NCBI GenBank assembly: GCA_963711835.1
Contig: CAVQFQ010000015.1
Coordinates: 108,408-172,407 of the forward strand
DNA length: 64,000 bases
Reading direction: 5' to 3'
Source of the DNA: an uncultured delta proteobacterium
GTDB lineage: Bacteria; Desulfobacterota; RBG-13-43-22
In this document: one piece after another, positions 11,817 through 39,628 of the stretch
How positions within the stretch are numbered: position 1 is the first letter of the stretch
Layout: each line of letters begins with the position of its first letter
The notes under the pieces: model-generated
Seen by the model: the letters and a program-made list of their open reading frames with translations, nothing else
The model's database searches: none
Told to the model about the DNA's origin: nothing
Translations under genes and position numbers: made by a program

Positions 11817-12987
11817 ATGAAGAAAGCCTTAATAGTCGTCATGATGATGGTGATGTTCCTGGGCGTTTATCAAATCAGCCAGGCCCAGCAAACCTACACC
11901 CTGGGGGCGGTCCATCCTTTCACCGGTCGGTTTGCCTTTGCCGGCATTCACGGACAGGATGCTATGAAGGATGCCGTTGACATGGCCAACGAGGCCGGGG
12001 GCATCAACGGCAAGAAACTGCAGTATTTCTGGAAGGACGGCGAATACAAGGATGACGTGGGCATTGCGGCCTTTAAAAGCCTCTATACCCAGTACAAGCC
12101 CCAGATCATGTGGGGCCAGAGTACCGGTATGACCAAGGCCCTGGGGCCGGAAATCAAGGATCGCTACAAGGTACTCTACTCGGCCTACACCTTCACCGAC
12201 GTAGCGGCCAACCCCAAAGAAAATCCCTATATGTTTATTCCCGGTCCGACTTATGCCGAACAATTCGCCGTGCTGCTCAATTACATCGCCAAACAAAAAC
12301 CCGGAGCCAACGTGGCCTTTTTTTACGGCGACTACGAATTCGGCCGGGAGCCCATACCCTTCGCCCGGGAGTACGCCAAGAAATTAGGTTTGAAAGTAGT
12401 GGCTGAGGAGGTGAGTCAAGGCGGGCGGGGTGGACGTGACCACCAATATCCTGAACATGAAACAGAAAAACGTGGAATTCTGTATTTTCCAGGGTTATAT
12501 CGCTGATCCCATCCAGAACGTCATTAAACAGTCCAAGGATTACGGGTTGAAATGCCAGTTCATGGGCACCTTCTGGTCCACGGAGAAACAACTGCTCGAC
12601 CTGCTGGGTCCCCTGGCCGATGAGTACATCGGGGTGACCGCCTATTCTTTCTACTATCAGGATCAGTATCCGATGATCAAAAAAATCCGGGAATGGAATC
12701 AAAAGCACAACCCTAAACACGCGGAATTCCGCACCCAGGCCTATATGCAGGTCTTCATGGGCACTACCCTGATGATCGAGGCCCTCAAGCGGGCCGACAA
12801 GGCCGGCCCGGTGACCGGCGACAGCCTGGTCAAAGCCCTGCAGTCGATCAAAAATTTTGATGTGGGCGGATTGATGCCGCCGGTGACCATCAAAGGCAAC
12901 AGCATCCCGGTGGGCCGGGTGGTCCGGGGGAATTCCAAGACCGGGAAGTTCGACCCGATTACGGACTGGATTAGTCTGGATTTGTAA
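11817..12987 (+). CDS. ABC transporter substrate-binding protein (LivJ/K-like); frameshift near 12420
   Basis: Signal peptide, NEAGGINGKKL; continues in ORF 12430-12987. Confidence 0.85.
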
Positions 12988-12993
12988 GAGTCG

Positions 12994-13070
12994 TAAGGCA
13001 TAAGGCGTCAGGCGCAAGGCGTGGGGAAAGCTTTTCTTTGGTTTTCCTTGCGCCTTGCACCCTGCGCCTT
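12994..13070. repeat. Inverted AAGGCG-type heptamer-repeat hairpin
   Basis: TAAGGCA TAAGGCG TCAGGCG CAAGGCG ... CCTTG CGCCTTG CACCCTG CGCCTT. Confidence 0.75.
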
Positions 13071-13094
13071 CTTGCCCCGAACACTCAGATTTTT

Positions 13095-15018
13095 ATGACA
13101 AGTACGGCCATCCATATTAACACGCTCCCCGGCTTGCTGAAACGCAATGCCCGGGAATTCGGGTCATTGAAAGTGGCCCTGCGTGAAAAAGAGTTCGGGA
13201 TCTGGCAGTCCGTCTCCTGGCAGGAGTACTACGATCGCATTCGTTATCTGGCCTTGGGCTTATTGGAATTGGGCTATGAGACCGGAGACAAGCTTTCGGT
13301 CATAGGCGACAACCGCCCCGAATGGCTTTACTCAGAGCTGGCCATCCAGGCCCTCGGCGGGGCCGTGGTCGGCATCTATCCCGACAGCCACCTGGAGCAG
13401 GTCCAGTACATCATCGACCAATCCGACTCGGTCTTTGTCATGGTCGAAGACCAGGAACAGACGGACAAGATCCTGAACATGATTGACGACATCCCCAAGA
13501 TCAAAAAAGTTATCGTCGATGACCTGAAGGGGATGCGCAGTTACCAACATCCCCTGCTCATTCCCTTCAAACAGGTTATGGAGATGGGCCGGGAGGCGGA
13601 CCAAAAGGATCCCCGGCTTTTTGATCAACTTCTGGATAGGGTCGGCCCGGAAGACGTGGCCATGATCCTCTATACCTCGGGGACGACCGGCATGCCCAAA
13701 GGGGTCATGCTGACCCATCTGAATATGATTAAAATGATCGAAAATTTCGACCAGGTGGATCCGGCCTATCCCACCGACAACCACGTATCCTTCCTGCCCT
13801 TGCCCTGGGTGGGAGAACAGGCTACTGCGGTGGCCTGGAATCTCTATAAGGGTGTGACCATCAATTTCCCGGAAAAGGTGGAAACGGTTTCGCAGGACAT
13901 CCGGGATATTGGGCCCAATCTCCTGCTGGCCCCTCCCCGCCACTGGGAAAAGATGTGTTCCGACATCCAGGTTAAAATACAGGATGCGACCTGGATCAAA
14001 CGCTTCCTCTATAAAATCTGTATGCCGGTTGGCTACCGGATGGCCGAATTCCGCCTGAAAGGGAAATCCTCTGGGCCCCTTTATTCTTTGCTGGACAAGC
14101 TCTGTTACTTGCTCCTGTTCCGCTCGCTGAAGAATTACCTGGGCCTGACCAACTTACGGAATGTCTATACCGGCGGTGCTCCCATCGGGCCGGAGGTCTT
14201 TAATTTCTTTATGGCCCTGGGCATCAACATCAAGCAGCTTTACGGGCAAACCGAAGTCACCGGACTGGCCGTAGGCCATCGCAATGAAAGCGTCAAATTG
14301 AATACCGTCGGTTCGCCCATGCCGGAAGTGGAACTCAAGATCTCGGATGCCGGGGAGATCCTGATCAAGGGGCCGACGGTTTTCAAGGGCTACTATAAAA
14401 ATGAAGAGGCCACCCGGAAGACTATCGACTCCGAAGGCTGGGTACACACCGGCGATGAGGGGATCTTGGATGAGGACGGTCAGATTGATCATGATCGACC
14501 GGCAGAAGGACGTCATGCGCCTGGGCGACGGCAGCAAGTTTTCCCCCCAGCTTATTGAGAACAAGCTGAAATTCAGCCCTTATATCAACGAAGCCATGGT
14601 GGTGGGCAAAGACCGTCCCTATATCGCGGCCATGATCATCATGGATATGGGCAATATGGGCAAATGGGCCGAAAACAACAAACTGACCTATACGACCTTT
14701 ACCGATCTCTCCCAGAAACCCGAGGTCTACGAACTGATCGCCGGGGAGATCCAGCAGATCAACCGTTCTCTGCCGAAAATAGCCCGGGTCAAGCGTTTTG
14801 TCATGATGTATAAAGAACTCGATGCTGATGATGATGAAATGACCCGAACCCGTAAGTTGCGCCGGGGATTCGTGGCCGAACGGTATGCCGTCCTTCTGGA
14901 GGCCCTCTACGGCGACCAGGAAGAATTGCCGGTGGAATCCGATATCCGCTATCAGGACGGGACCGGGTTCCGCATGAAGACCCGGGTTCGGATTAAAGAG
15001 GTAAAAGACCAGGGATGA
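13095..15018 (+). CDS. Long-chain fatty acid-CoA ligase (AMP-binding); frameshift near 14485
   Basis: YTSGTTGMPKG, YGQTE, GWVHTGD; C-terminal part IDRQKD...TRTRKLRR in ORF 14401-15018. Confidence 0.88.
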
Positions 15019-16742: not shown

Positions 16743-17678
16743 TCACGTGTCAACGCTTTTGAATCTGTCGGCATTAAACAAAATTACCCTATTCCTCCCC
16801 CCTGTCTTGGCCTGATAGAGGGCCTGGTCTGCAGCGGCCACCAGAATATTGGCCTCTTTGATCCCGGGTGAAGGGTAGAAAGAAATCCCGAAGCTGGCCG
16901 TGACGTGAATTGAAGAATCGCCAATCAAAAAAGCGGTCGAGGCGATTTCATTTCTAAGACGATCACACACCAATAGGGCGGCTTCCACTTCGGTCTGCAA
17001 CAAGACCAGGGCAAACTCCTCCCCTCCATACCTGGCCGCCAGGTCGCTTTCCCGAATCCTCTTCTTTAACATAAGGGCCATCTCTTTAAGAATCATGTCC
17101 CCGGCCTGATGCCCATAGGTATCATTGACCTTTTTAAAAAAATCAAGATCCAGGATGATACAAGAAAGGATACCGCCGTACCGCCTTATCCGATCCATTT
17201 CACGATTGAGGTATTCATGAAAGAAACGATGATTATAAAGATTGGTCAGTCCATCCCGATTGGCCAGGTCCTGAAGTTGAAGGTTTTTTTCCTGCAGGGC
17301 CTCATAGAGTTCTTTCATCCTCAGCTGGGTGTTGACCCGGGCCATCAGTTCTCCGGCATCAAAGGGCTTGGTGACATAATCGACCGCACCCAATTCCAAC
17401 CCCCTGACCTTATCAGCCGGCTCCGCTTTGGAGGTGAGCATAATCACCGGGATATCCCGGATGGAGTCCATATTTTTCAGACGCCGGCAGACTTCATAGC
17501 CGTCCAGACCGGGCAGGATGACATCCAGGAGGATTAAATCGGGATGATCCCGCAAGGCAATCTCCAGACCCAACTCTCCCGAATCAGCAGTCATGACCTC
17601 ATGCCCGTTGGTGAGCAGGATCCTTTTCCCGTATTCGGTGATTAAACGGCTGTCATCAATCAAAAGTATTTTGCTCAT
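16743..17678 (-). CDS. Response regulator diguanylate cyclase (REC-GGDEF, WspR/PleD-like)
   Basis: REC (ILLIDDS, DLILLDV, KPF); RESD I-site followed by RYGGEEF. Confidence 0.92.
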   Translation of the reverse strand: MSKILLIDDSRLITEYGKRILLTNGHEVMTADSGELGLEIALRDHPDLILLDVILPGLDGYEVCRRLKNMDSIRDIPVIMLTSKAEPADKVRGLELGAVDYVTKPFDAGELMARVNTQLRMKELYEALQEKNLQLQDLANRDGLTNLYNHRFFHEYLNREMDRIRRYGGILSCIILDLDFFKKVNDTYGHQAGDMILKEMALMLKKRIRESDLAARYGGEEFALVLLQTEVEAALLVCDRLRNEIASTAFLIGDSSIHVTASFGISFYPSPGIKEANILVAAADQALYQAKTGGRNRVILFNADRFKSVDT

Positions 17679-17706
17679 GACCTCACAACCCTCTGCCATA
17701 GCCGGC

Positions 17707-18762
17707 TTAAGCTGACCCAAGTAACTTCATGAGTATGGACGGTATCTTGTCCAAGGGGACAATTTCCCGGGCCGCGCCTAATTTGATGGCGGCCTGCGGC
17801 ATGCCAAAGACGGTAGAAGAAGATTGGTCCTGGACCAAGGTCTTGGCCCCCTGGTTCCGCATGGCCAGGAGGCCGCGGGCCCCATCTTCCCCCATGCCGG
17901 TCAAAAGAAGGCCGACCCCTTTTTCGGCCGCAGCCTCGGCCAGTGAGTAAAAAAGGACATCCACCGACGGACGATGATGATTAACCGGCGGGTCCTGGCT
18001 TAGACGAAGGCAGTAGCCGGACCGATCTTTGGCGACCCGTCCATGACTGTCACCGGGCACCACCAGGGCCTCTCCCATTTTTAACCGATCTTGGTCCCTG
18101 GCTTCCCGAACCGATAATGGGGATATGTGGTCGAGATGTTCTGCAAAGGCGGCCGTGAAGGGAGAAGGCATGTGCTGGACGATAACGATAGGCGGCAACA
18201 TGGCCGGGAAATGAGAAAAAAGACGGTGCAAGGCCTGGGTCCCGCCGGTGGAAGCCCCAATGCCGATAAGGTTGGGAAACGGCTGGCTCCCTACTGAAAG
18301 CAAAGGGTGGAAAGAAGGCCTTCCTTGAAATGGGGGAAGGGGTTCGGTAAGGGGAAGGATTTTCGCCTGAGCCGTTTCCTTGACCTTTCTTAGATACCGG
18401 TCGGGGAAGGTGTCCCTTTCTTCTTGGTCGCCCGGCTTTGGCTTGGGAATGAAATCCACGGCGCCTGAAGAAAGGGCCTGAATGGTTGTCTGGCAATTTT
18501 CTCGGGTATAGGCGCTGACCATAATCACCGGCATGGGGCGGGAGGCCATGACCTCTTTTAAAAAAGTGAGCCCGTCCATCCCGGGCATTTCCACATCAAG
18601 GGTCATGACATCGGGCCGGACCTTTTGGAGGATGGCTCCGGCCTCGTAAGCGTCCTGGGCGGTTGAGATCTGAGCAATCTCCGGATCCGACGAAAGGATC
18701 CGGGCCAGCCACTGCCGCATCAGGGATGAATCGTCAACGATCAGGACATGTATTTTTTTCAC
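17707..18762 (-). CDS. cheB: Chemotaxis methylesterase
   Basis: REC domain plus GASTGG, VQHMP, RPSVDVLF, LTGMGEDGA. Confidence 0.95.
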   Translation of the reverse strand: MKKIHVLIVDDSSLMRQWLARILSSDPEIAQISTAQDAYEAGAILQKVRPDVMTLDVEMPGMDGLTFLKEVMASRPMPVIMVSAYTRENCQTTIQALSSGAVDFIPKPKPGDQEERDTFPDRYLRKVKETAQAKILPLTEPLPPFQGRPSFHPLLSVGSQPFPNLIGIGASTGGTQALHRLFSHFPAMLPPIVIVQHMPSPFTAAFAEHLDHISPLSVREARDQDRLKMGEALVVPGDSHGRVAKDRSGYCLRLSQDPPVNHHRPSVDVLFYSLAEAAAEKGVGLLLTGMGEDGARGLLAMRNQGAKTLVQDQSSSTVFGMPQAAIKLGAAREIVPLDKIPSILMKLLGSA

Positions 18763-18783
18763 GCCATCTCCTCTATCAACCTC

Positions 18784-19365
18784 TTAAAATAATGTAAGTG
18801 ACGGAGGTTCGACCCTTCTCTGGAACAACCGGCTTTTATATTTTCCTTCCCCCTGGAGAAGCTCTTGGGGTAAGGAAGGAAGACGTTTTAAGAGGATACG
18901 TCCTTCCGGGATAAAGAGATAGATTTTTCTGGCCCAGGATCCGCCTACATCTTCTTTGATCAAAGGGATATTCTCCAACTCAAAAAACTTCCGGACAAAG
19001 CGGATGTTGGAATCGGGGATATTACCGTCCGAATGACGAAAGTTGAGCACCTGGCCGCCTCCGAAGCATTTCGCTTTGAGGGTCTTCCGATCCCCTCCTT
19101 TTTTAATGATTTCCCCGATCAGCAGTTCCATGGCAAAAAGACCATAGCGGCCGATTTCATTTAAGAGGATATCTTCCGGGGATATGATCCCGGGAAGCAT
19201 AAAGTGGTTCAAACCCCCGATCCGGGTCTTTTCGTCGAAGAGACAGACGGCGATGCAGGATCCCACCAAGGTTCCGATGATCTCCGGCTGATTGGCGGCA
19301 TAATATTCCCCCGGACCAAGGGTGCAAACCGGGAGATTGAATTTGGAACTAAATCCTTGGCGCAT
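18784..19365 (-). CDS. cheD: Chemoreceptor glutamine deamidase
   Basis: TLVGSCIAVCL, GGLNHFMLP, AKCFGGG. Confidence 0.92.
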   Translation of the reverse strand: MRQGFSSKFNLPVCTLGPGEYYAANQPEIIGTLVGSCIAVCLFDEKTRIGGLNHFMLPGIISPEDILLNEIGRYGLFAMELLIGEIIKKGGDRKTLKAKCFGGGQVLNFRHSDGNIPDSNIRFVRKFFELENIPLIKEDVGGSWARKIYLFIPEGRILLKRLPSLPQELLQGEGKYKSRLFQRRVEPPSLTLF

Positions 19366-19379
19366 GATCGGTAAAAGGG

Positions 19380-20225
19380 TCAGGGTATCCTTTGATAAAC
19401 TGTTTTCCCAAGAGGTTTGAAGAGTTCTTTCAGCTCCAAAAGGTTTTCGCTGTGGCCAAGAAAAAGAAGCCCTGATGGCCGGAGGTTTTGATAAAAAAAA
19501 TGCGCTACCTTTTCTCGAACCAGCGGCTGAAAATAGATCAGGACGTTTCGACAGAAGATGATCTCAAAAGGTCCCCGGCGGACAGCCGCCGGCCGGTGCA
19601 GGTTGAAGGATTCAAAGGCAATCTGTTTTTGAAGGGAGGGACGAATTTTGATTAGACCGGCCTGTTCCTGGATCCCCTTTAAAAAAAAAGATTTTAAAAA
19701 ATCGGTTGGGATCGACTGGGCGGTTTTGGCAGGATAGACCCCCTTTCGGGCTTTGTGAAGGGCCTCCTGATCGATGTCGGTGGCCCAGATATTAAACCAT
19801 AGAGAGGGGCGATTCCTGGCAAAATCGGACAGGGTCATGGCCAAGGAATAGGCCTCTTCTCCGGTGGCGCAACCGGCGCTCCAGAGGGAGAGCTTCCGGA
19901 TAAAGGATCCGGACTCGGTCCAGGTGGGAAGGTAGCTCCGGGTCAGAAATTCAAAATGATGCTTTTCTCTGAAAAAGCGGGTCTCATTGGTGGTAATGCG
20001 GTTGATTAACTGACCTACTTCACGGCCGTGGGTGGCCGGGTCGGTCAGGACCTCCAGGTATTCGTTAAAATTGGTGCATCCCAAGGCCTTTAAGCGGGGA
20101 GTCAACCGGGAGACCAAAAAGACTTTTTTGAAATCGGAGAGTTTAATCCCTGCTTCACGAGAAATCAGTTCTTGTAAGATCTTAAAGGCCTTATGGCTGA
20201 TGGTTAAAGGGGCAGACAGGGGCAT
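19380..20225 (-). CDS. cheR: Chemotaxis methyltransferase
   Basis: TTNETRFFRE, WSAGCATGEEAYS, IFCRNVLIYF, LGHSE. Confidence 0.95.
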   Translation of the reverse strand: MPLSAPLTISHKAFKILQELISREAGIKLSDFKKVFLVSRLTPRLKALGCTNFNEYLEVLTDPATHGREVGQLINRITTNETRFFREKHHFEFLTRSYLPTWTESGSFIRKLSLWSAGCATGEEAYSLAMTLSDFARNRPSLWFNIWATDIDQEALHKARKGVYPAKTAQSIPTDFLKSFFLKGIQEQAGLIKIRPSLQKQIAFESFNLHRPAAVRRGPFEIIFCRNVLIYFQPLVREKVAHFFYQNLRPSGLLFLGHSENLLELKELFKPLGKTVYQRIP

Positions 20226-20236
20226 CGTTATTAGGG

Positions 20237-20692
20237 CTAACCGGTTTTATCCAGGGCTTCGATTTCCTCGTCACTCAGGAGCCGATCGGCATCCAGAAGA
20301 ATGACCAACCCGGATTCCTTGGTCCCGATCCCTTTGATATAAGCGCTCTGGATGGGGGTTGAAAATGCGGGCGGAGCCTGGATTTCCTCGGCGGTCAGAT
20401 CCAAGACGTCGTGGGCTGCATCCACAAGGAGGCCCATCAATCTCCCGGCTAATTCCACGATGATAATAACGGTATGGGGATCATTTTCCCTCGGAGGCAG
20501 ATCGAATTTTTTACGGGGATCAAAGACCGGTATGATCACTCCCCTCAGGTTCAAGATCCCTTTAATAAATTCTCCCAGGCGGGGAACCCGGGTCAAAGGA
20601 CGATAGGCGATGATCTCCTTGACTTTCAATAATTCCAAGGCGTATTCCTCATGATCCAGAAAAAAAGTGATGTATTGGAGGGTTTCGGCCAT
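20237..20692 (-). CDS. cheW: Chemotaxis coupling protein
   Basis: GILNLRGVIIPV, GLLVDA. Confidence 0.92.
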   Translation of the reverse strand: MAETLQYITFFLDHEEYALELLKVKEIIAYRPLTRVPRLGEFIKGILNLRGVIIPVFDPRKKFDLPPRENDPHTVIIIVELAGRLMGLLVDAAHDVLDLTAEEIQAPPAFSTPIQSAYIKGIGTKESGLVILLDADRLLSDEEIEALDKTG

Positions 20693-20710
20693 GCCCCGGC
20701 TCCTTTCAGA

Positions 20711-23029
20711 TTAGAATTCCTCAAAACCCTCTTCAAGATCCAAGTCGTTTACACCCGCCGGACCCTCTTGCAGCCTGCCCTTCTTGACCAGATCCTCCCG
20801 CAAAGGTCGTTTCACTGCCGGGGCGATTCCCCTTTTATTCCGGGGTTTAACAGGGGTATGGGTTCCCAAGGACCCGGAATGAAATTCCGGCACCTGGTTT
20901 TCCATCTCCTCGGGAAGGATGAAGCCTTCGGTGGAGATCTGTAAGGCCCCGGCATTCTGGGCCAACATCCGGCTGGACAAGGCCAGTTCGTCAACCAGAG
21001 AGCCATTTTGCTGGACAATATCCTGGAGTTCCAGGAGGGCCTGATTGATTTCTTCGGTGCCTTTAGACTGCTCCTGCGAGGCGACGGCAATATGAGAGAT
21101 ATGGTCCGACAATCTTTCATTTAAGGTCTGGATCTTTTCCAGACTGAGACGGGTATCCCCTACCAATTTATGCACCGAACTGACCTTGTCCAGGCTGTCC
21201 TGGATCAGGGCCTGGATTTCCTTGGCCGCCTCCTGACTGCGGCGGGCCAAATTTCGGACTTCATGGGCCACCACCGCAAAGCCCTTGCCGTGTTCGCCGG
21301 CCCTGGCGGCCTCAATAGCGGCATTGAGTGCCAATAAGTTGGTCTGGAAGGTGATCTCATTAACCAGGGTGATGATTTCCGATATCTTCTGACTGGCCTG
21401 AGAGACCTGATCCATAGAGGAATGGGTTTTTTCCAGGACCTGGTGTCCTTCCTGAGCAAAGCGGACGGCCTCTTTGGCCATCTGCTCGGCCTGCTGGGTA
21501 TTGCCGGCGGTCTGGTTGATGGAAGCCGCCATCTCTTCCATAGTGGCGCTGATTTCCTCCATGGTGCTGGCCTGCTGCTGGGTTCGCTGGGAGAGGTCCT
21601 GGTTCCCGGATGATATCTGGCTGGCCGATTGGGCCACTCCCAGGGCAGCTCCCTTGGTTTGGGCGATCAGTTCACCCATTTTATCAAACATCTCATTGAC
21701 CCGGGAAGAGAGCTGATCCATAAGATCCCCTTTGCCCTCCAGCAGCGCCCGCAGGGAAAGATTTCCTTCAGAAGCTTTTTGAAGGGCCAGGGACAGCTTC
21801 TCAACCCGCTCTTCCAGGTACTTGCGTTGGGCTTCTTCCTTCCGGGCCGATTCCTTAATCTGATTTTCGGCTTCTACGATCTTGGTCGTATCTCGGAAGG
21901 TCTCGAAGGCCCCTAAAATATTCCCTTTGGAGTCTTTAAGGGGGGCGGCAGAGACCATGATGTGCATAACCTTGCCCTGTTTGGTGACGGATGATAGGTT
22001 TATGCCGGTGGTAGCTTCCCCGGTTCGGAGGGCCTTTTTGACCGAACAGTCCGTATCACAGATATCGGACCGAAAGACGTTGTGACATTTCATTTTACCT
22101 TCCACTTCCTCCGGGGAGAAGCCGCTGATCTTGGCCGCTATGGGATTGATATAGGTGATGGTCATCTCGGGATCGACGATAAAGAAAGGATCCGAGATAG
22201 CGAATTTGAGGCTGTTGGCGTATTCCATCTGGTTTTTTAAATTTTGGACCATGCGGTTCAAATGGTCGGCCAGGCGGCCGATGGAATCCTCTCCCTGGGG
22301 AGGGATGGTCACTTCCAGATTGCCTTGGGCGATCTCTTTAGCCCGCTCCCGCAGGGTCCGGATGCGGCGGGTTATAAGGGCGTACATTAGAAAATAGAGG
22401 GTAACAATGATTACCAGAAGCCCGAAGACACCTGAATAGAGTATCCAGCGGCTGGAGGATTGGACGGCCCGGTAATCTTTCTGGATATTTTGGGTGATCA
22501 GGAGGCCGCCGAGTACTTTTATCTTGGGTTCATGGCACTGATGGCAGGCCGGCTCGTTCAGGATCGGCTGAAAGGAAGCGATAAATCGTTTGCCCTTTAA
22601 GGAGGTAAGCTGCCCTCCCGGCAGGGGAGTGCCTTGGGCCAGAGAGGCCTTAATTTTCTGATAGAGGTCGGGGTTGGTGATTACCTCCGAAAGGGGCTTT
22701 TTGAAATTCTCGGGTTCATCGACATAGACGGCTGTTTCGTTGGGATGGAAGATAAATCCATCCAGATTCTGGTTCGTGCTCTGCAGGGCCTCAAATTGCG
22801 TTCGCACCCCATCCATATCCCCTTTGGCCATGGGGTGGCGGATGGAGGCCAGGGTGTTTAAAAGTATGTCGTGGCCAAAGTCGGAGTAGCGGGCGATTAG
22901 CGACTGATAATGGAGACGATTAAAATAGAAGAGCAGCGAACCAACCAGCAACCCGATGGTTATAACCAGCAGAAGCAAGATCTTAAAACGCAGGCTTTTA
23001 CGAAATTTTTTTAGATTCAACCAGCCCAT
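20711..23029 (-). CDS. Methyl-accepting chemotaxis protein with periplasmic CxxCH, HAMP and PAS domains
   Basis: Two TM helices, [40 protein letters not shown]-terminal GFEEF pentapeptide. Confidence 0.93.
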
Positions 23030-23137
23030 TTCATCCCCCTTGATAACGGTTTTTCTAATGTGACAATCATGACAACCTTACGCTATCCCGCATCCTATAT
23101 CTCAGATCCCGGATCCAGGATCTAGGTATTCCAAATC

Positions 23138-25240
23138 CTAATCACCAAAGATCAGGCGATCCAATCCGTAAATATCCAATATCAAACAGACACTGCCATC
23201 GCCCAAAATGGCACCTCCGGAAATACCGGGTATGGAGCGGAAATGACTCTCCAGGCCTTTGATGACCACCTGGCGGGTCTCCAGAATTTGATCGGCCAGG
23301 ACAATAAACCTGCGTCGCTGGCTGTCGAGGACCAAGCCGATCTTATCGGTCTCCCCAATGTTCCCGGCTGTTACTCGTGGCCCGGCCAGATAGTTTTCCA
23401 GAAAAATGACCGGCAAATATTCCCCCTCAAAGGGCAGCAGGGCTTCTTTGGCCTCGATGGTTTTCAGATCACCCTTCCGGATTTTTAAGGCCGCAGCGAT
23501 GGAAGACAAAGGCAGGAGGTAGGCGTCTTGGCCGATCCGGATCCGGAGTCCTTCCAGAATGGACAAGGTCAAGGGTAAACTTAAGGTGATGGTGGTCCCT
23601 TGCTGCGGCTGGGAGACAATGGTAATTGTTCCCCCGAAGCGCTGGATTTGCTCGCGAACCACGTCCATCCCGACCCCACGGCCGGATATCTGGGAGACAA
23701 CTTTAGCCGTGGAAAATCCAGGCAGGAGAATGAAGCGATGCAGTTCAGCCGCGGAAGGACGGGATCCGGGAGTGACGAGTTGGGATTTCAAGGCCTTTTG
23801 ATAGATGGCTTCCTCATCCAGGCCCCGGCCGTCATCTCGAACCTGGATGTAAATGCGGCCTTCCCGTTGAAAGGCCTTCATTCCCAAAGTACCCTGGGGG
23901 AGTTTCCCGGCCACCCGCCGCTCCTCGGCAGGTTCGAGGCCGTGATCGATGGCGTTTCGAATAAGGTGTTTTAAGGGATCGGTGATTTGCTCAATCAGGT
24001 CCTTATCCAGTTCGGTTTCCTCTCCTTCAAATTCGATGCGAATCTCTTTTTCTTGCTCCAGGGCCAAATCCCTGGCCAACCGGTGTAAGCGCTGGAAGGT
24101 TCCGGTCAAAGGAAACATGCGAACCCGCATCACCTGTTCCTGAATCTCTCTCAAGGTTTTTTCCACACCCTCCATTTCTTCCAGTACCAGACGAGAGGAG
24201 AGAGTCTCTGTTTGATTGGCCAAATGAGAAATTCTGGAGAAATTGACGGAGGTTTCCTCCACCAGGTTGGCCAGGAGATCCAATTTCTGGGTAGCCACCC
24301 GGATGGTCGATTTCCGCAGCCAATCCCGGCTTTTCTCCTGATCGCTCAGGAGCTGTGAAAGGGATTGGGCCGAGACCTTGTTTTGATCTACCAGGACCTC
24401 GCCGATCTTTTTCTGGGAGGCCAGGGCCTCCTGTAAATCATGGGAATCGATGTAACCTTCTTTTAGGAGGAGGTCTCCAATCCGTTGGTCCGCCAGAGAA
24501 ACATCAACGCCTTCCGGGAAGTTATCGGTGACCTCTGTTATAGTAATCCGGTGGGAATCCCGGACAAAACAGAAAACATCTTCCAAGCTGGAAAGAGGCT
24601 GACGAGTACGGAAAAGGATTCCCCAGGACAAATATAGGGAAAAGGGATCGATTTCCGCAATCCCCGGAACCCTTGAGAGATCCGTTTCCACCTTGAGGAC
24701 CTCACCCAGCTCCTGAAGTTCCTTAAAAAGCATCAAGGGGTCCTGACCGGAAAAGAAAAGATCTTCTTTAAAGAAGACGGAAATGGTGTAGTATTTCTGA
24801 GGAATTTCCTTTTTGAGACCAGGCAGCGCGGCTTCCGGGGAGGTTTCCTTTATTTCGAGGCCGAGGAAGCGGTTTAATTTTTCCTGTTGTGATTCCAGTT
24901 CAGAAGGTTCAATCGGTTCTTTCCCGTGGAAGGCCCTTTCGACCATAGTTTTCAATAGGGCTTGGCTGTTGAGGAGATGTGAAATCAGGGCGGCGGATGG
25001 AGCCAGCCGACCGCTTCGAAGCCTTTCCAAAAGGTTTTCCAGCAAGTGGGCATATTCCGAGAGGGAGTCGAATCCCACCATGGCCGCACTGCTCTTGAGG
25101 GTATGAATCCCTCGGAAGACCTCCTGAACGAAGGAAGGGTCATGAGGCCGCTCCTCCAGGGCCAAAAGGTTTTTCTCAATGCGCTGGAGCAGCTCCTCGG
25201 CTTCCGAGAAAAAAATCTCTAAGAGTTCTTTGTCTTCCAA
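23138..25240 (-). CDS. cheA: Chemotaxis histidine kinase
   Basis: HPt FRGIHTLKS, HLIRNAIDHGLE, DDGRG, SGRGVGMDVV, C-terminal CheW domain. Confidence 0.95.
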   Translation of the reverse strand: MEDKELLEIFFSEAEELLQRIEKNLLALEERPHDPSFVQEVFRGIHTLKSSAAMVGFDSLSEYAHLLENLLERLRSGRLAPSAALISHLLNSQALLKTMVERAFHGKEPIEPSELESQQEKLNRFLGLEIKETSPEAALPGLKKEIPQKYYTISVFFKEDLFFSGQDPLMLFKELQELGEVLKVETDLSRVPGIAEIDPFSLYLSWGILFRTRQPLSSLEDVFCFVRDSHRITITEVTDNFPEGVDVSLADQRIGDLLLKEGYIDSHDLQEALASQKKIGEVLVDQNKVSAQSLSQLLSDQEKSRDWLRKSTIRVATQKLDLLANLVEETSVNFSRISHLANQTETLSSRLVLEEMEGVEKTLREIQEQVMRVRMFPLTGTFQRLHRLARDLALEQEKEIRIEFEGEETELDKDLIEQITDPLKHLIRNAIDHGLEPAEERRVAGKLPQGTLGMKAFQREGRIYIQVRDDGRGLDEEAIYQKALKSQLVTPGSRPSAAELHRFILLPGFSTAKVVSQISGRGVGMDVVREQIQRFGGTITIVSQPQQGTTITLSLPLTLSILEGLRIRIGQDAYLLPLSSIAAALKIRKGDLKTIEAKEALLPFEGEYLPVIFLENYLAGPRVTAGNIGETDKIGLVLDSQRRRFIVLADQILETRQVVIKGLESHFRSIPGISGGAILGDGSVCLILDIYGLDRLIFGD

Positions 25241-25246
25241 TCTCGT

Positions 25247-25624
25247 CTACCGGATGAATTTTTTAACCACCCAGAGCAACTGCTCCGGTCGGAAGGGTTT
25301 CTCCAGCCAGCCGGCAGCCCCGGCCTTCTTGGCCTCTTCTTTCAGCTCCGGCTGGGTTTCGGTGCTCAGAACCAGCACCGGGATAAAACGAAAGGAAGTG
25401 ACCTTGACCTCTTGGATAAACCGGATCCCGTCCATAACCGGCATATTGATATCAGTTATGATTAAGGATATGGATCGGCCCTCTTCTTTTAAATGCGCCA
25501 GGGCGTCCAAACCCTCTTGGCCGTTTTCCGCTTCAAGGGTCTGGTAACCGGCATTCTGGAGACAGAAACTAAGGGAGGCCCGGAGAGTGGGAGAGTCGTC
25601 TATGATCAAAACAGGTGGGGGCAT
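25247..25624 (-). CDS. cheY: Single-domain response regulator
   Basis: IIDDS, ITDINMPVMDG, GWLEKPF. Confidence 0.88.
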   Translation of the reverse strand: MPPPVLIIDDSPTLRASLSFCLQNAGYQTLEAENGQEGLDALAHLKEEGRSISLIITDINMPVMDGIRFIQEVKVTSFRFIPVLVLSTETQPELKEEAKKAGAAGWLEKPFRPEQLLWVVKKFIR

Positions 25625-25629
25625 ATCGC

Positions 25630-25899
25630 CTAATCCTCCATTTTAAGAAAAGAATGCAGACCCAAAAGTTTCGCCGATTCAAGGATGGCAGGAGGAACTG
25701 CTTCAAATGTAAGGGAATGATTTGCAAGGGATTTCTTAAAGGACAGCAACAATTGAAAGGCCGCTGTATCCAGGTAGGCCAGTTGGTGACAGAAAAGGGT
25801 TACCGGTCCCGATGCCTTGGAGGCAGCCAAAAGCTCCCCATGAAGGCCTTCAATATTTTGGAGGGTAATCTCACCTGCCAGGTTGATGGTAAAGGCCAT
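25630..25899 (-). CDS. STAS domain protein
   Basis: LAGEITL, YLDTAAFQLL; first gene of the che operon. Confidence 0.8.
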   Translation of the reverse strand: MAFTINLAGEITLQNIEGLHGELLAASKASGPVTLFCHQLAYLDTAAFQLLLSFKKSLANHSLTFEAVPPAILESAKLLGLHSFLKMED

Positions 25900-26059
25900 A
25901 GGGGAGTCGCCTTGAAGCTCCTTTCTTTACGGACCGGTGGATCGCTGGTGTTGGGTATCCTCCCTATCTAACACAAAAAAAGAGTAAGTCAATTAAAATA
26001 GAATCAGGCCGGCGGTTGGAAAACATCCGAAAAAACCCATTGACTCCGGCATATCTTTG

Positions 26060-26075
26060 ATGCATATTAATGCAT
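26060..26075 (+). promoter_or_regulatory. Probable vapBC operator palindrome
   Basis: ATGCAT-atta-ATGCAT just upstream of vapB, downstream of a TTGACT -35-like hexamer. Confidence 0.5.
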
Positions 26076-26104
26076 ATAGATCTGAATATGGAATGGGGGC
26101 GGGG

Positions 26105-26302
26105 ATGAGGACGACACTGAACATAAAAGACGAGCTGCTGGAGAAGGCCTCCCGCTTGACCGGCGTTGAGGAAAAAACGGCCCTGGTCATGCTGGGGCTG
26201 GAGGCCCTGATAGCCAAGGAGAGCGCCAAGAGGCTGGCCAAACTGGGAGGTACGGAAAGGCAACTGGCGGGAATTCCGCGCCGGAGATCGGCTGACAAGT
26301 AA
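26105..26302 (+). CDS. vapB: VapB family antitoxin
   Basis: MRTTLNIKDELL...EKTALV...ESAKRLAKLGG; 1 nt before a PIN toxin. Confidence 0.88.
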   Translation: MRTTLNIKDELLEKASRLTGVEEKTALVMLGLEALIAKESAKRLAKLGGTERQLAGIPRRRSADK

Positions 26303-26303
26303 G

Positions 26304-26663
26304 ATGGTCCTGGTTGATACTTCTGTCTGGGTGGCTCATCTCAGGGCAGGGAACATCGGCCTGGAGGGGCTGCTGGCTGAAGGTCGGATCGTCTGCCATC
26401 CCTTCATCATTGGTGAACTGGCCTGCGGGAACCTGAAAAACCGGTCTGAAATCCTGGCGCTGCTTCGGGCTCTGCCTTCGGTTGTCGCCGCAGAACATGA
26501 CGAGGTGATGGGGTTCATTGATGATCGTCGTCTGATGGGAAAAGGGCTGGGTTTGATCGATATGCATCTTCTGGCGTCTGCTGTCCTGAGCGAGGTAAGA
26601 CTTTGGACACTCGACAAGAACCTTTCTCAGGCGGCAAGGCAACTGGGATTGGCCCACTTATAA
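26304..26663 (+). CDS. vapC: VapC PIN-domain toxin
   Basis: VLVDTSVW, GELACG, IDMHLLAS, LWTLDK. Confidence 0.9.
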   Translation: MVLVDTSVWVAHLRAGNIGLEGLLAEGRIVCHPFIIGELACGNLKNRSEILALLRALPSVVAAEHDEVMGFIDDRRLMGKGLGLIDMHLLASAVLSEVRLWTLDKNLSQAARQLGLAHL

Positions 26664-26677
26664 GAACCTCGCACGAT

Positions 26678-29569
26678 ATGGACAAATTCATCAATCAGCT
26701 TAAACGCACTCCCTTGGGGGACCTCATCTGCCACCACGAAAAAATTCCGGCCCGGCCTTCCCACTGGGGGGACCTTTCCTTTCCCCTGCCCCAGGCCCTT
26801 CAACAGGCCCTGATCAAAAAAGGGATCCACAGGCTCTACAGCCATCAGGTGGAGGCCCTGGAAGCCATCCGAAAGGGTGAGCAGGTCATCGTTTCCACAC
26901 CCACAGCCAGCGGCAAGACCCTGATCTATCTCCTGACCAGCCTGCAGCAGATGGTTCAAGATCCTCAGGCCCGGTCCTTATATCTTTTCCCCATCAAGGC
27001 CCTGGAGCAGGATCAGAGAAAGGCCATTGAGGAATGGGGGCCTTTCCTGCCCGTGCCCCGGAAGGCTTTGAGCGCCATCTACGATGGGGATACGCCGGTC
27101 TCCAACAGAAAAAAAATCCGTCAGGAACCGCCCCCCATCGTCATCTCCAATCCCGACATGCTTCACTTGGGCATCCTGCCTTATCACGAACAATGGAAGG
27201 AATTCTTCCAGAACCTGAAAGTGGTCGTCCTGGATGAGGCCCACACCTACAAGGGTATTTTGGGCAGCCATGTGGTCCAGGTTATCCGGCGCTTGCAGCG
27301 CATCTGCAGCCTCTACCGGAGTTCTCCTCAATTTATCCTCTGCTCGGCCACCATCTCTCAGCCGGAGGTCTTTTCCAAGGCCCTGACCGGTCTGTCTTTC
27401 CAGGTGGTCAAGGAAAGCGGCTTCCCCTCTTCGGCCAAACATTTCCTCTTCCTGAATCCGGATATCAGCGCCTCGGTCATCGGGGCCCGGCTCTTTACCT
27501 ATGGTTTGTCCAAAGGTAAAAAGACCATCCTCTTTACTCAGAGCCGGAAGGTCACCGAACTGATCCATACCTGGGTGGAACAGATGGTCCCGACCCTGAA
27601 AGGGAAAATCAGTTCCTACCGGGCCGGATTTTTACCGGAAGAAAGGCGGACCATCGAAAGAAAGCTGGCCTCCGGTGAGCTGCTGGGGGTGATCTCCACC
27701 AGCGCCCTGGAGCTGGGGATCGACATCGGGAGTTTGGATGTCTGCCTCCTGGTCGGCTACCCGGGCAGTGTTATCAATACCTGGCAGCGGGGCGGCCGGG
27801 TAGGACGGACCCAGAGGGAATCGGCCATCATCCTGATCGCTCAACCCGATGCCCTGGACCAGTATTTTATCCGTCACCCCGAGGATTTTTTTGAACGGGG
27901 CTTTGAGACGGCGGTGGTGGACCCGGATAATACCCCGATCCTGAAGGCCCACCTGCCCTGTGCCGCAGCAGAATCGCCTCTTCTTCGGGAGGACCCTTTC
28001 TTCCGGCCCGAGCACCATTTCCGGGAGATTAGAGAACTGGAAAAGGAAGGGCGTCTTTTATTGAGTGCCCGGGGGGAGGAATGGATCTCCTCCAAGCGGA
28101 ATCCTCAGCGGGAGGTGAATATCCGGTCCATCGGAGAGGCCTTTACCATTTTGAGGGGCAAAAAAGGGGAGGTCGTCGGGACCCTGGACCGGCTGCGGGC
28201 CTTTCGCGAATGCCATCCCGGGGCAATTTACCTGCACCGGGCCGAGTCTTATCTGGTGGAAGAGCTGGACCTGTTCGAGAAGAACGTCTATGTCAAAAAA
28301 CAGGAAGCCAATTATTATACCCGGATCGTGGCCCAGAAAGAGACCGAGATCATCGAACAGGAAAAGGTCAGGCCGGTGGGGAATTTTCTGATCCATTTCG
28401 GAAAGATTCTGGTGACCGAGACCTTTACCGGTTATGAGAAAAGGGCCATCCACGGCCAGGAACTCCTGGGCGTCTACCCCCTGGAGTTACCGCCCCAGAC
28501 CTTTGAAACCGAGGGCCTATGGATTGAGATCGAAGATGCCCTTCAGGATCAGATGAAGGCCTTTAACTTTCATACTATGGGCGGGCTCCATGCCTTGGAA
28601 CACGGGGCCATCAGCATTTTTCCGCTTTATGCCCTCTGCGACCGCGGGGATATCGGGGGGATCTGTTACCCGCGCCATCCCCAGGTAGGCAAAGGGGCCA
28701 TTTTTATTTATGACGGCTATGCCGGAGGGGTGGGCCTGTCCCGGAGAGGTTTTGAGATTATTGAAAACCTGTTGCAAAAGACGATCCTGCTGATTTCGGA
28801 ATGCGACTGCGAGGAAGGCTGCCCTTCCTGTATTCATTCCCCCCAGTGCGGTTCGGGAAACAAACCCCTGGACAAACAGGGGGCCCTCTACCTGGCCAAA
28901 CTCCTCCTGGGGCAGACGCCCCTTAAGGCGCCCCGGAAGAAAACCGCTTCCGATGGAGGTGAACCCGAAAAAATCGGCTCCAAGCCTCAGGAAATCAACC
29001 CCCTTCGGTTGGGATTTTTTGATCTGGAAACCCAGCGGCTGGCTGAAGAGGTGGGCGGGTGGGGAAATAAGCACCTGATGCGCCTCTCGGTGGGAGTGGT
29101 CTATGATTCCGGGGATAAAGGTTACCATCATTATCGGGAGGAAGAAGCCGACCGTCTCATCGAGCATCTGAAGCAGTTTGATCTGTTGGTTGGTTTTAAT
29201 ATCAAAAACTTTGATTACGGTGTCTTGAAGGCCTATTCCTCCTTTAATTTTGATTCCCTGCCGACCCTGGATCTGCTGGAGGAGGTTTTTAAGTGTCTGG
29301 GATTTCGCCTGACCTTGGACCATATCGCCCGGAAGACCCTGGGGGCGCCGAAAGGCGGTAATGGACTGCTGGCCGTGCAATGGTTTCGGGAAGGGAATTG
29401 GGAGGAATTGATCCGCTATTGCCGGCAGGATGTGGAGATTACCAAGTCCCTGTTCGAATTCGGTCAGGAAAAAGGTCACCTGCTCTTCGAAAGCAAAGGG
29501 GGCCAGGTAGTTCGCTGTCCGGTGGATTGGAGCCCGAAACGGATTGAAAGCTTTCTAAAAGGACGGTGA
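26678..29569 (+). CDS. DEAH-box helicase with DUF1998 (MrfA/YprA/SftH-like) fused to a YprB/RNase_H_2-like exonuclease
   Basis: TPTASGKT, DEAH, SAT, QRGGRVGR, CDCEEGCPSC; C-terminal FFDLET, GFN..FD, YCRQDV. Confidence 0.9.
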   Translation: MDKFINQLKRTPLGDLICHHEKIPARPSHWGDLSFPLPQALQQALIKKGIHRLYSHQVEALEAIRKGEQVIVSTPTASGKTLIYLLTSLQQMVQDPQARSLYLFPIKALEQDQRKAIEEWGPFLPVPRKALSAIYDGDTPVSNRKKIRQEPPPIVISNPDMLHLGILPYHEQWKEFFQNLKVVVLDEAHTYKGILGSHVVQVIRRLQRICSLYRSSPQFILCSATISQPEVFSKALTGLSFQVVKESGFPSSAKHFLFLNPDISASVIGARLFTYGLSKGKKTILFTQSRKVTELIHTWVEQMVPTLKGKISSYRAGFLPEERRTIERKLASGELLGVISTSALELGIDIGSLDVCLLVGYPGSVINTWQRGGRVGRTQRESAIILIAQPDALDQYFIRHPEDFFERGFETAVVDPDNTPILKAHLPCAAAESPLLREDPFFRPEHHFREIRELEKEGRLLLSARGEEWISSKRNPQREVNIRSIGEAFTILRGKKGEVVGTLDRLRAFRECHPGAIYLHRAESYLVEELDLFEKNVYVKKQEANYYTRIVAQKETEIIEQEKVRPVGNFLIHFGKILVTETFTGYEKRAIHGQELLGVYPLELPPQTFETEGLWIEIEDALQDQMKAFNFHTMGGLHALEHGAISIFPLYALCDRGDIGGICYPRHPQVGKGAIFIYDGYAGGVGLSRRGFEIIENLLQKTILLISECDCEEGCPSCIHSPQCGSGNKPLDKQGALYLAKLLLGQTPLKAPRKKTASDGGEPEKIGSKPQEINPLRLGFFDLETQRLAEEVGGWGNKHLMRLSVGVVYDSGDKGYHHYREEEADRLIEHLKQFDLLVGFNIKNFDYGVLKAYSSFNFDSLPTLDLLEEVFKCLGFRLTLDHIARKTLGAPKGGNGLLAVQWFREGNWEELIRYCRQDVEITKSLFEFGQEKGHLLFESKGGQVVRCPVDWSPKRIESFLKGR

Positions 29570-37870: not shown

Positions 37871-38023
37871 ACTCTGAACTCCGAACGTTTTAATAAAAAC
37901 CCCTTGCCATCTCTCGATTTATCTGAATATACCTACCCTCAGCCTTACTGCGACTGCATCTTCAGCTAACATGATCGCTTCGCCCCCAAAACGGAAATAA
38001 TACTTCCGAAATCTTAGGGGAGA

Positions 38024-39612: not shown

Positions 39613-39628
39613 GTGAGGTGTAGTTTTT

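What the first reader, a model, noticed from the sequence alone, without database searches (positions are those of the whole stretch)
16743..25899. Chemosensory operon with diguanylate cyclase output and an MshEN-like motif inside CheA
Seen: STAS-cheY-cheA-mcp-cheW-cheR-cheD-cheB-REC/GGEEF. CheA contains RIGDLLLKEGYIDSHDLQEALASQ-KKIGEVLVDQNKVSAQSLSQLLSDQ (nt 24338-24484). Established: the MshEN c-di-GMP-binding motif is a tandem RLGxxLLxxGLIxxxxLxxxLxxQ; the first copy here fits closely and the second is degenerate. Inference: CheA phosphorylates the cyclase and is feedback-regulated by its product, giving a self-contained c-di-GMP loop rather than plain flagellar control.
Basis: partly seen in the sequence, partly recalled or inferred. 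Interest (0 to 1): 0.7.

Follow-up and report, generated by a model that had tools for sequence, protein, structure and literature searches.

The report
Heme-sensing chemosensory c-di-GMP circuit
A nine-gene chemotaxis-type operon, in a bacterium where no flagellar genes were found, likely turns a heme-based redox or gas signal into the messenger c-di-GMP, and its kinase carries a module predicted to bind that same messenger, a kinase design already catalogued in 2016.

Summary
The nine genes run STAS-cheY-cheA-mcp-cheW-cheR-cheD-cheB-REC/GGDEF. CheA 253-301 passes the NCBIfam c-di-GMP motif cut-off, and its model overlays MshEN_N (5HTL, 1.7 A). The second half-motif is not really degenerate; the real deviation is a 1-residue linker instead of 5.

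MshEN in CheA is published. Wang 2016 listed the architecture and measured KD 2.6 uM for Aeromonas CheA. Its alignment also shows Desulfovibrio CheA1 with the same short linker, untested. This scan noted the same theme before on other genomes.

What this work adds: (1) The cyclase is tightly linked to this CheA clade (16 of 16 evaluable loci; 0 of 47 outside). (2) This is the only chemosensory system found in a genome where four flagellar markers were not found (89% complete). (3) The receptor has a periplasmic c-type-heme sensor of the Geobacter GSU0582/0935 kind, and some relatives add a tetraheme c554 gene. (4) A sister clade swaps the cyclase for a partner-switch pair.

'Self-contained loop' is overstated. 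The motif also sits in CheAs without a cyclase, and the genome has nine other GGDEF proteins. Verdict: a new variant of a known kind; binding, phosphotransfer and feedback are untested.

The parts
25630..25899 (-). Stand-alone STAS protein (89 aa); partner unknown, and no cognate kinase or phosphatase gene in this operon
   Evidence: Pfam STAS_2 E 5e-14. The sister clade carries HATPase_c_2 and REC-SpoIIE genes.
25247..25624 (-). CheY, single receiver domain, phospho-acceptor D58 present; likely phosphate sink or second output
   Evidence: No CheX found in the genome.
23138..25240 (-). CheA, 700 aa: P1/Hpt (H46), P2-like domain 149-236, short-linker MshEN_N 253-301, P3, P4, P5. The only CheA found in the genome.
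24338..24484 (-). MshEN_N-type tandem motif (49 aa; two 24-aa halves with a 1-residue spacer); predicted c-di-GMP site whose last helix runs on toward the dimerisation domain
   Evidence: NF053729 45.7 bits. The model aligns to 5HTL (Z 8.5, rmsd 1.7 A, 54 residues) and to c-di-GMP-bound 8PDK (Z 8.6, rmsd 1.3 A, 55 residues).
24533..24796 (-). P2 (CheY-binding)-like domain of CheA, missed by Pfam
   Evidence: The model aligns to T. maritima CheA P2 1U0S (Z 8.2, rmsd 3.9 A, 80 residues), tied with other ferredoxin-like folds.
20711..23029 (-). The only chemoreceptor found in the genome (772 aa): periplasmic heme-c sensor, HAMP, cytoplasmic PAS, 36H signalling domain, C-terminal pentapeptide GFEEF
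   Evidence: (gap-free alignment to Tsr over 290 residues)
22484..22843 (-). Periplasmic c-type-heme sensor domain: CxxCH at residues 162-166 (nt 22532-22546) and an invariant Met67 (nt 22829-22831) that lines up with the Met60 switch ligand of GSU0582
   Evidence: Pfam PF21563. Hits to 3B42 (E 6.7e-7) and 3B47. M67, C162, C165 and H166 are invariant in 10 of 10 aligned sequences.
20237..20692 (-). CheW
19380..20225 (-). CheR methyltransferase (281 aa, no TPR domain detected)
18784..19365 (-). CheD deamidase
17707..18762 (-). CheB methylesterase with receiver domain (D56)
16743..17678 (-). REC-GGDEF diguanylate cyclase (311 aa), WspR/DgcR-like: D52 phospho-acceptor, RxxD I-site (RESD), GGEEF active site
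   Evidence: D52 and GGEEF are invariant in 11 of 11 aligned sequences.

Best explanation
This nine-gene operon encodes an F7-like chemosensory system that likely senses redox state or NO/CO through a predicted periplasmic c-type heme, likely signals through CheA to the co-encoded REC-GGDEF cyclase to set c-di-GMP, and carries in CheA a short-linker MshEN_N module predicted to bind c-di-GMP and likely to tune the kinase. Shown by sequence and calls: gene order, intact catalytic and acceptor residues, the heme motif, co-inheritance of kinase and cyclase, and the lack of detectable flagellar genes here. Inferred steps: (1) Heme oxidation or gas binding releases Met67 and changes receptor output, by analogy with GSU0582/0935; in relatives a periplasmic tetraheme c554 may feed it electrons. 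(2) CheA-P passes phosphate to cyclase D52 and activates it as in WspR, while CheY and CheB take phosphate as sink and adaptation. (3) c-di-GMP then acts on receptors elsewhere; the likeliest are the two MshEN-bearing PilB/MshE-type pilus ATPases of this genome. (4) c-di-GMP also binds CheA's MshEN_N, which adjoins the dimerisation helix, and I guess it damps the kinase. The module would read the whole cell's pool, not only this cyclase's product. My odds: cyclase is a CheA target about 0.7; the module binds c-di-GMP about 0.6; binding changes kinase output about 0.4.
For: Linkage: cyclase orthologues at 54% identity or more occur in exactly the 12 of 60 sampled relatives that have the CheA orthologue. 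In the CheA clade (19 rows, SH-aLRT 98), 16 of 16 loci with sequence past the che genes end in the cyclase. Five of 21 are cut by contig ends, and two of these continue to cheB-cyclase on another contig. Outside the clade, 0 of 47 evaluable loci carry it. Chosen from the cyclase side, 7 of 7 further hits at 54% or more follow cheB; one repeats a locus already counted. CheA and cyclase trees share their main groups. A sister clade fills the same terminal slot with an anti-sigma-type kinase and a REC-SpoIIE phosphatase, as expected of a swappable output module. Non-flagellar: FliM was not found in 6 of 20 carrier genomes, three of them 100% complete. Flagellin was not found in the 5 of those 6 that were tested. 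Binding module: HMM above cut-off, fold retained. In 120 short-linker relatives, G11 and G40 equivalents are 120/120 and Q61 117/120. A CheA MshEN_N-P3 fragment binds c-di-GMP with KD 2.6 uM (PMC5013675 supplement). Input. A heme-c motif is present in 14 of 20 clade receptors, and a tetraheme c554 gene lies between cheA and mcp in 8 of 21 loci.
Against: No binding, phosphotransfer or expression was measured. The 1-residue linker removes 4 of 53 residues next to Q32/R38. No short-linker MshEN is in the 2016 binding table, and the Q32 position is Gln in only 70 of 120 relatives. The conservation counts come from pairs picked by a matrix that rewards those residues. The motif is not tied to a cyclase, so it did not arise for this loop. 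FliM is present in 14 of 20 carriers, and in G058 (99% complete, flagellated) this is the only CheA found, so CheY may drive a motor there. Six similar REC-GGDEF genes (48-51% identity, one family) have no che genes within 7-13 kb. Kin are not independent: the linkage may trace to one old fusion of operons. Six of 20 clade receptors lack the heme motif, so the input is exchangeable. G000 is only 89% complete.
Confidence: 0.55

Rival explanations
1. The cyclase is the output, but the CheA module no longer binds c-di-GMP. The four-residue deletion turned it into a structural spacer or protein-docking bundle between P2 and P3, so there is no feedback.
For: Linker of 1 instead of 5 in 120 of 134 motif pairs. 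Q32 is variable (70/120). R9 is replaced by P, L, S or T in 9 of 21 clade members. The MshEN region is no more conserved than P3 (0.49 vs 0.49). No short-linker binding datum exists.
Against: Both guanine-reading glycines, the leucine clusters and Q61 are kept. The model overlays ligand-bound MshEN at 1.3-1.7 A. Single Q32A only weakens binding 9-fold, and Aeromonas CheA binds despite R-to-M and R-to-K changes.
Confidence: 0.25
2. CheY is the real output (type IV pili here, the flagellar motor in flagellated relatives). The cyclase is only co-transcribed and is phosphorylated by another kinase. The MshEN module lets global c-di-GMP throttle motility signalling.
For: The genome has PilB, PilC, PilT/PilU-like and pilin-like genes. 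G058 has flagella and only this CheA. The motif also occurs in CheAs lying about 26 kb from fliM. Close REC-GGDEF relatives exist without che genes.
Against: The cyclase is kept as the last gene in every evaluable clade locus, across at least six families, with D52 invariant in the 11 aligned, while cheR or cheB were lost in some. No histidine kinase gene lies beside it in the window. CheA lacks the receiver and multi-Hpt layout described for Tfp-class kinases.
Confidence: 0.15
3. The STAS protein, not phosphorylation alone, controls the cyclase, as SiaC does for SiaD in Pseudomonas (the SiaC-SiaD binding mechanism is recalled, not read here).
For: STAS is retained in nearly all clade loci although its presumed kinase and phosphatase are gone. 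The cyclase has a below-cut-off hit to the SiaD model. PMC9239204 passages describe SiaABCD as a STAS-regulated cyclase pathway.
Against: STAS-cheY-cheA also heads F7 clusters with no cyclase (PMC7184735). The SiaD hit is 168 bits against a cut-off of 290 and lies in the generic GGDEF region.
Confidence: 0.05

Closest known systems
Aeromonas veronii CheA EKB11881 and Desulfovibrio vulgaris CheA1 DVU_1594 in Wang et al. 2016 (PMC5013675)
   Same: Same domain order HPT-P2-MshEN_N-dimerisation-HATPase-CheW. The Aeromonas MshEN_N-P3 fragment binds c-di-GMP at KD 2.6 uM and shares the R-to-K change in the second half. DVU_1594 is aligned there with the same 1-residue linker.
   Different: The Aeromonas linker is long. 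The short-linker form was not in the binding table. No effect on kinase activity and no operon cyclase was reported in the parts I read. A D. vulgaris cheA1 mutant had no motility defect and its role was left open (PMC3944678).
Wsp system of Pseudomonas (ACF class; WspE to WspR)
   Same: A chemosensory pathway whose response regulator is a REC-GGDEF cyclase (passages). WspR-type structures are among the top PDB hits.
   Different: Here CheA has a P2-like domain, an MshEN_N module and no receiver domain. The receptor is 36H with a pentapeptide (the WspA orthologue is 40H). There are separate CheY, CheD and STAS genes and one CheW.
Ancestral ('stage 1') F7 chemosensory systems of Vibrio and relatives (PMC7184735); Shewanella Che1 with CrsR-CrsA (PMC9855816)
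   Same: Anti-sigma antagonist-cheY-cheA at the head, cheR-cheD-cheB, and a 36H receptor with pentapeptide; apparently not flagellar. The sister clade here ends in a kinase/phosphatase partner-switch pair like those clusters.
   Different: One cheW, placed after the receptor. The receptor is a transmembrane heme-c sensor instead of a cytoplasmic Aer2. There is no mcpA, second STAS or phosphatase, and the terminal gene is a cyclase. The paper calls the function of stage 1-2 F7 systems unclear.
Geobacter sulfurreducens heme-c chemoreceptors GSU0582 and GSU0935 (PDB 3B47, 3B42; PMC8396549)
   Same: Periplasmic PAS-like sensor with CxxCH and a distal Met; HAMP and MCP domains follow.
   Different: This receptor adds a cytoplasmic PAS domain, is 36H, sits in a dedicated operon, and in relatives is preceded by a tetraheme c554 gene.

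Membership tests
MshEN_N c-di-GMP-binding domain | Two 24-residue motifs with six conserved ligand-contact residues each | tested here: met
   First half R253, I254, G255, L269, L273, Q276; second half K278, I279, G280, L294, L298, Q301. Nine of 12 are identical and 3 conservative.
MshEN_N c-di-GMP-binding domain | 5-residue spacer giving a 53-residue unit | tested here: not met
   The spacer is 1 residue (49-residue unit) here and in 20 of 21 clade members. It is therefore filed as a short-linker variant, not the canonical unit. The 2016 paper itself aligns such a variant, DVU_1594.
MshEN_N c-di-GMP-binding domain | Curated HMM cut-off and four-helix bundle fold | tested here: met
   NF053729 45.7 > 38 bits. 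Predicted model vs 5HTL Z 8.5, rmsd 1.7 A, 54 residues; vs 8PDK Z 8.6, rmsd 1.3 A, 55 residues. These Z values are modest for helical bundles; Foldseek alone listed no MshEN in its top rows.
MshEN_N c-di-GMP-binding domain | Binds c-di-GMP | not testable with these tools
   Needs ITC, DSF or DRaCALA.
F7 chemosensory class | 36H receptor with C-terminal x-[HFYW]-x2-[HFYW] pentapeptide | tested here: met
   Gap-free alignment to Tsr; ends in GFEEF; definition.
F7 chemosensory class | Stage-1 gene order: antagonist, cheY, cheA, two cheW, aer2, cheR, cheD, cheB, mcpA, antagonist, phosphatase | tested here: not met
   Head and R-D-B block match. cheW number and position, receptor type and tail differ. 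That order was defined for gamma-proteobacteria, so I call the system F7-like.
F7 chemosensory class | Class-specific CheA HMM or placement among reference F7 sequences | not testable with these tools
   No class HMMs or labelled reference set were on hand; the tree holds only fetched loci.
Wsp / ACF class | Response regulator fused to GGDEF as output | tested here: met
   REC-GGDEF is the last gene.
Wsp / ACF class | CheA with C-terminal receiver domain; 40H receptor | tested here: not met
   No receiver domain in CheA; receptor is 36H; class traits. It works like Wsp but is not a member.
Active REC-GGDEF diguanylate cyclases | Phospho-acceptor Asp, GG[DE]EF A-site, RxxD I-site | tested here: met
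   D52, GGEEF 218-222, RESD 209-212.
Active REC-GGDEF diguanylate cyclases | Phosphorylation by the cognate CheA and c-di-GMP synthesis | not testable with these tools
GSU0582/GSU0935-type heme-c chemoreceptor sensors | Periplasmic PAS-like domain with CxxCH and a distal Met | tested here: met
   PF21563 above cut-off; 3B42 E 1.4e-9 with a profile. The Met equivalence rests on a weak aligned piece (2.1 bits) whose numbering gives Met60; the Met is invariant in 10 of 10.
GSU0582/GSU0935-type heme-c chemoreceptor sensors | Covalent heme and redox- or gas-linked ligand switch | not testable with these tools
   Needs spectroscopy.

The most novel reading that the evidence does not exclude
A conserved Desulfobacterota signalling unit wires periplasmic electron flow (tetraheme c554 to a heme-c receptor) to a c-di-GMP synthase through an F7-like array. 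Its own product binds the kinase through a minimal 49-residue MshEN variant and acts as a second adaptation loop, one that some lineages keep after losing cheR or cheB. This would give an ancestral-type F7 system a defined enzymatic output, and I found no earlier case of c-di-GMP directly controlling a CheA.
Probability: 0.28. Interest if true: 0.7.

Novelty: new variant of a known kind. Interest (0 to 1): 0.42.

Why it matters
Two open points would become testable with five purified proteins. First, whether the MshEN module, found in many CheAs and shown to bind c-di-GMP once in 2016, actually controls kinase activity, and whether the common 1-residue-linker form binds at all. Second, what non-flagellar F7-like systems do: PMC7184735 calls their function unclear, and here the system comes with an enzyme output in a cell with a single receptor and no flagellar genes found. 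It would also link periplasmic redox state to c-di-GMP, and so probably to pili and attachment, in uncultured sediment anaerobes. The parts and the Wsp-like logic are all known, which caps the interest.

Tried and rejected

Foldseek on full-length CheA returned only P3-P5 kinase structures. On the P2-MshEN piece it gave no hit at E <= 0.001; the wide structural search was needed.

Pfam does not detect MshEN or P2 in this CheA. The 13,673-sequence CheA survey PMC10782961 has no 'MshE', 'T2SSE' or 'c-di-GMP' in its main text; its supplements were not seen.

Rfam found no RNA family, including c-di-GMP riboswitches, in the window. The promoter/terminator scan gave 13 vs 7.0 +/- 2.6 and 23 vs 14.6 +/- 3.5 expected sites, with none convincing at the operon ends.

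Three sediment metatranscriptome assemblies from one study hold pieces about 90-96% identical across the operon, one bridging cheB and the cyclase (17299-18087). They are contigs of related strains and do not show transcription or co-transcription; not used as evidence.

'The cyclase is a resident gene that the che cluster landed beside' was tested and rejected for orthologues at 54% identity or more. A c554 homologue was not found in G000 (best E 0.21). Recent acquisition is not suggested by composition: operon bins are 0.50-0.54 GC vs 0.528 for the genome.

Literature searches and term look-ups in three reviews showed no test of c-di-GMP on CheA activity via MshEN and no description of this operon. 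The library lacks most subscription papers.
Full report
OBSERVATION. The nine genes lie on the minus strand from 25899 to 16743 in the order STAS, cheY, cheA, mcp, cheW, cheR, cheD, cheB, REC-GGDEF. Gaps are 5-28 nt except 108 nt between cheA and mcp. They are flanked by a divergent vapBC pair and a convergent ABC transporter gene. The quoted peptide is exact and is CheA 253-301. It scores 45.7 bits on NCBIfam NF053729 (cut-off 38), and its best PDB sequence hits are Thermus PilF and Vibrio MshE. An AlphaFold2 model of residues 145-312 (21-sequence alignment, pLDDT 85.5) overlays MshE 5HTL (Z 8.5, 1.7 A, 54 residues) and c-di-GMP-bound PilF 8PDK (Z 8.6, 1.3 A, 55 residues). Its first half overlays the P2 domain of T. 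maritima CheA (Z 8.2, tied with other ferredoxin-like folds). In the full-length model the last MshEN helix runs to residue 310, just before the dimerisation helices (that model has pTM 0.37, so domain packing is not to be trusted).

THE MOTIF IN DETAIL. Against the contact residues given in PMC5013675 (main text parts 1-2 of 7 read), 9 of 12 are identical and 3 conservative (I for L10, K for R38, I for L39). The second half is therefore not degenerate where it matters. The unusual feature is a spacer of 1 residue instead of 5. This is the family norm: 120 of 134 motif pairs among the 150 best representatives have it (16 gave no pair), as do 20 of 21 members of the cyclase-linked clade. In those 120, the two glycines are invariant, Q61 is 117/120, L58 102/120, R/K9 96/120, and Q32 only 70/120. 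The pairs were picked with a matrix built from these same proteins, so the counts lean high. The profile search found 2,682 clusters at E <= 1e-10 (the profile includes P2 and also hits repeat proteins).

PRIOR ART. PMC5013675 names CheA among MshEN fusions and lists the architecture in Supplementary Table 4. It reports KD 2.6 uM by ITC for Aeromonas veronii MshEN_N-P3, despite four motif changes (supplement parts 2-4 of 5 read). Its supplementary alignment also holds DVU_1594 with the same short spacer. That gene is D. vulgaris cheA1, whose mutant had no motility defect (PMC3944678, passages); it is not in the binding table. The fusion and its ability to bind are thus known. Its effect on the kinase, and the short-linker form, are not covered in anything I found (searches; passages of PMC12943098, PMC12564702, PMC10519070, PMC10118264). 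This scan's earlier notes e1-3940612 and e1-6978616 describe the same theme on other genomes. The second says such fusions were never tested, which the 2016 supplement contradicts.

GENOME CONTEXT. G000 (3.9 Mb, 89% complete, 6.4% contamination) has one CheA, one MCP signalling domain, and one each of CheW, CheR and CheD by phmmer. FliM, flagellin, FliG and FlhA were not found, with controls ringing in four flagellated genomes, nor was CheX. It has two other MshEN proteins, both pilus-type ATPases followed by pilC-like genes, one with a canonical 5-residue spacer. It also has PilT/PilU-like genes, one borderline PilZ hit, ten GGDEF proteins with intact GG[DE]EF and about nine HD-GYP-like proteins. 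CheA's module would therefore see a pool fed by many enzymes. Named relatives are uncultured Deltaproteobacteria/Thermodesulfobacteriota genomes.

IS THE CYCLASE PART OF THE SYSTEM? Of 60 sampled relatives, 12 have a CheA orthologue (over 500 bits), and the same 12, and no others, have a cyclase at 54% identity or more. A tree of 104 CheA cores puts the window's kinase in a 19-row clade (SH-aLRT 98, quick mode, long branches present). Three loci with broken cheA were left out of the tree and added by similarity, and eight duplicates were dropped. Of the 21 non-window clade loci, 16 contain the cyclase and 5 end at a contig edge; two of those continue to cheB-cyclase elsewhere. Of 86 loci outside the clade, 47 extend at least 1 kb past cheB: none has this cyclase, 2 have any GGDEF gene, and 45 have the MshEN pair. 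Separately, 36 of 37 CheA segments matched NF053729, 29 above cut-off (these loci were chosen for likeness to the query, so this is no prevalence). Starting from the cyclase in 400 phylum genomes, 23 matched at E <= 1e-90. Of 13 not yet examined, the 7 at 54% or more follow cheB (6 with the full MshEN-CheA operon, 1 cut, 1 a repeat of a counted locus), while 6 at 48-51% from one family have no che genes nearby. Pairwise identities of CheA and cyclase correlate (rho 0.75; CheY and CheD give 0.86) and the trees share their main groups; kin are not independent, so this shows co-inheritance only. In the sister clade the slot after cheB holds an HATPase_c_2 gene and a REC-SpoIIE gene (L058 and L021 by Pfam, L055 HATPase by Pfam, L060 by likeness). 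This explains the leading STAS gene as a relic or partner of a partner-switch output like Shewanella CrsR-CrsA (PMC9855816, passages) and marks the last slot as the output slot.

FLAGELLA. FliM was not found in 6 of 20 carrier genomes (G000, G014, G015, G018, G027, G095). In three flagellated carriers a different cheA lies about 26 kb from fliM. Against this, G058 is flagellated and has only this CheA, without cheB in the operon.

The receptor's periplasmic domain matches PF21563 and the Geobacter heme-c sensors 3B42 and 3B47. CxxCH (162-166) and Met67 are invariant in 10 aligned members, and Met67 lines up with Met60 of GSU0582 in a weak piece of the profile alignment. Those sensors switch Met ligation with redox state and bind CO and NO (PMC8396549, passages). 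Fourteen of 20 clade receptors keep the heme motif. Eight of 21 loci carry a signal-peptide-like tetraheme c554 gene between cheA and mcp; the window lacks it. The signalling domain aligns to Tsr without gaps (36H) and ends in GFEEF. Together with STAS-cheY-cheA and cheR-cheD-cheB this resembles stage-1 F7 clusters, whose function PMC7184735 calls unclear (passages). Formal class assignment could not be run.

MECHANISM AND VERDICT. The best reading is heme redox or gas signal, then receptor, CheA, cyclase D52 and c-di-GMP, acting probably on the MshEN pilus ATPases. CheY and CheB are competing acceptors, and c-di-GMP probably also binds CheA next to its dimerisation helix. Only the anatomy and the co-inheritance are shown; every arrow is inferred, and the sign of any feedback is a guess. 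The main rival is that the shortened module is inert. The system works like Wsp (PMC6391922, PMC11253619, PMC9239204, passages) but is not a Wsp/ACF member. D. vulgaris REC-GGDEF cyclases have been assayed without a link to CheA in the passages I saw (PMC4114195). PMC10782961 (parts 1-3 of 5 read) does not mention the module. Supplements of papers other than PMC5013675 were not seen and could list such operons. Class: new variant of a known kind. Interest 0.42.

Noticed in passing
L010:3183-3674, L011:9593-10039, L012:9484-10008, L056, L057, L059, L061, L062; also L123, L125: A small secreted-looking tetraheme cytochrome c (Pfam Cytochrome_C554, four CxxCH) sits between cheA and the receptor gene; probably a redox partner of the sensor. 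Absent from the window, and no homologue was found in G000.
   Followed up: partly
L055:17646-18958, L058:8158-10319, L060:8487-10639, L021:3983-6198: Sister clade of the same operon ends in an anti-sigma-type kinase plus a REC-SpoIIE phosphatase instead of the cyclase. L021's CheA has lost the MshEN module.
   Followed up: partly
L011 (G058), L059, L061, L062, L129: Adaptation genes are dropped in some members while cyclase and MshEN stay: no cheB in L011, no cheR detected in the other four.
   Followed up: partly
L001:5216-7087, L005, L006, L008, L048: A 623-aa receptor form lacks the periplasmic heme domain altogether, leaving HAMP and PAS; the cytoplasmic PAS may be a second sensor.
   Followed up: partly
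window 21881-22195 (-): The receptor's PAS domain has a Cys/His cluster (residues 315-328), matched by my pattern in 5 relatives and possibly a metal or Fe-S site; an unverified guess.
   Followed up: no
G000:C5:306616-308304 and G000:C4:177598-179310: Two PilB/MshE-type ATPases with MshEN motifs, each followed by a pilC-like gene; candidate downstream c-di-GMP receptors.
   Followed up: partly
P0056, P0067, P0093, P0099, P0125, P0162, P0163: Proteins of 780-1180 aa with 6-8 stretches matching the MshEN part of the profile; not examined.
   Followed up: no
L130-L135: A group of REC-GGDEF genes 48-51% identical to the window's cyclase, from one family, with no che genes nearby; possible orphan sister lineage.
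   Followed up: partly
window 11817-12987 and 13038-15018 (+): A branched-chain ABC binding-protein gene and an AMP-ligase gene are each split into two overlapping frames; likely assembly frameshifts.
   Followed up: no
window 26057-26663 (+): vapBC-type toxin-antitoxin pair divergent from the operon, followed by a MrfA-like DEAD-box helicase with a C-terminal RNase H-like domain (26603-29569).
   Followed up: no
window 38001-42000: GC drops to about 0.45 against 0.53 for the genome; few long ORFs, one MgtC-family gene.
   Followed up: no
window 757-2963 (-): Two adjacent kelch-repeat ORFs, possibly one split gene.
   Followed up: no
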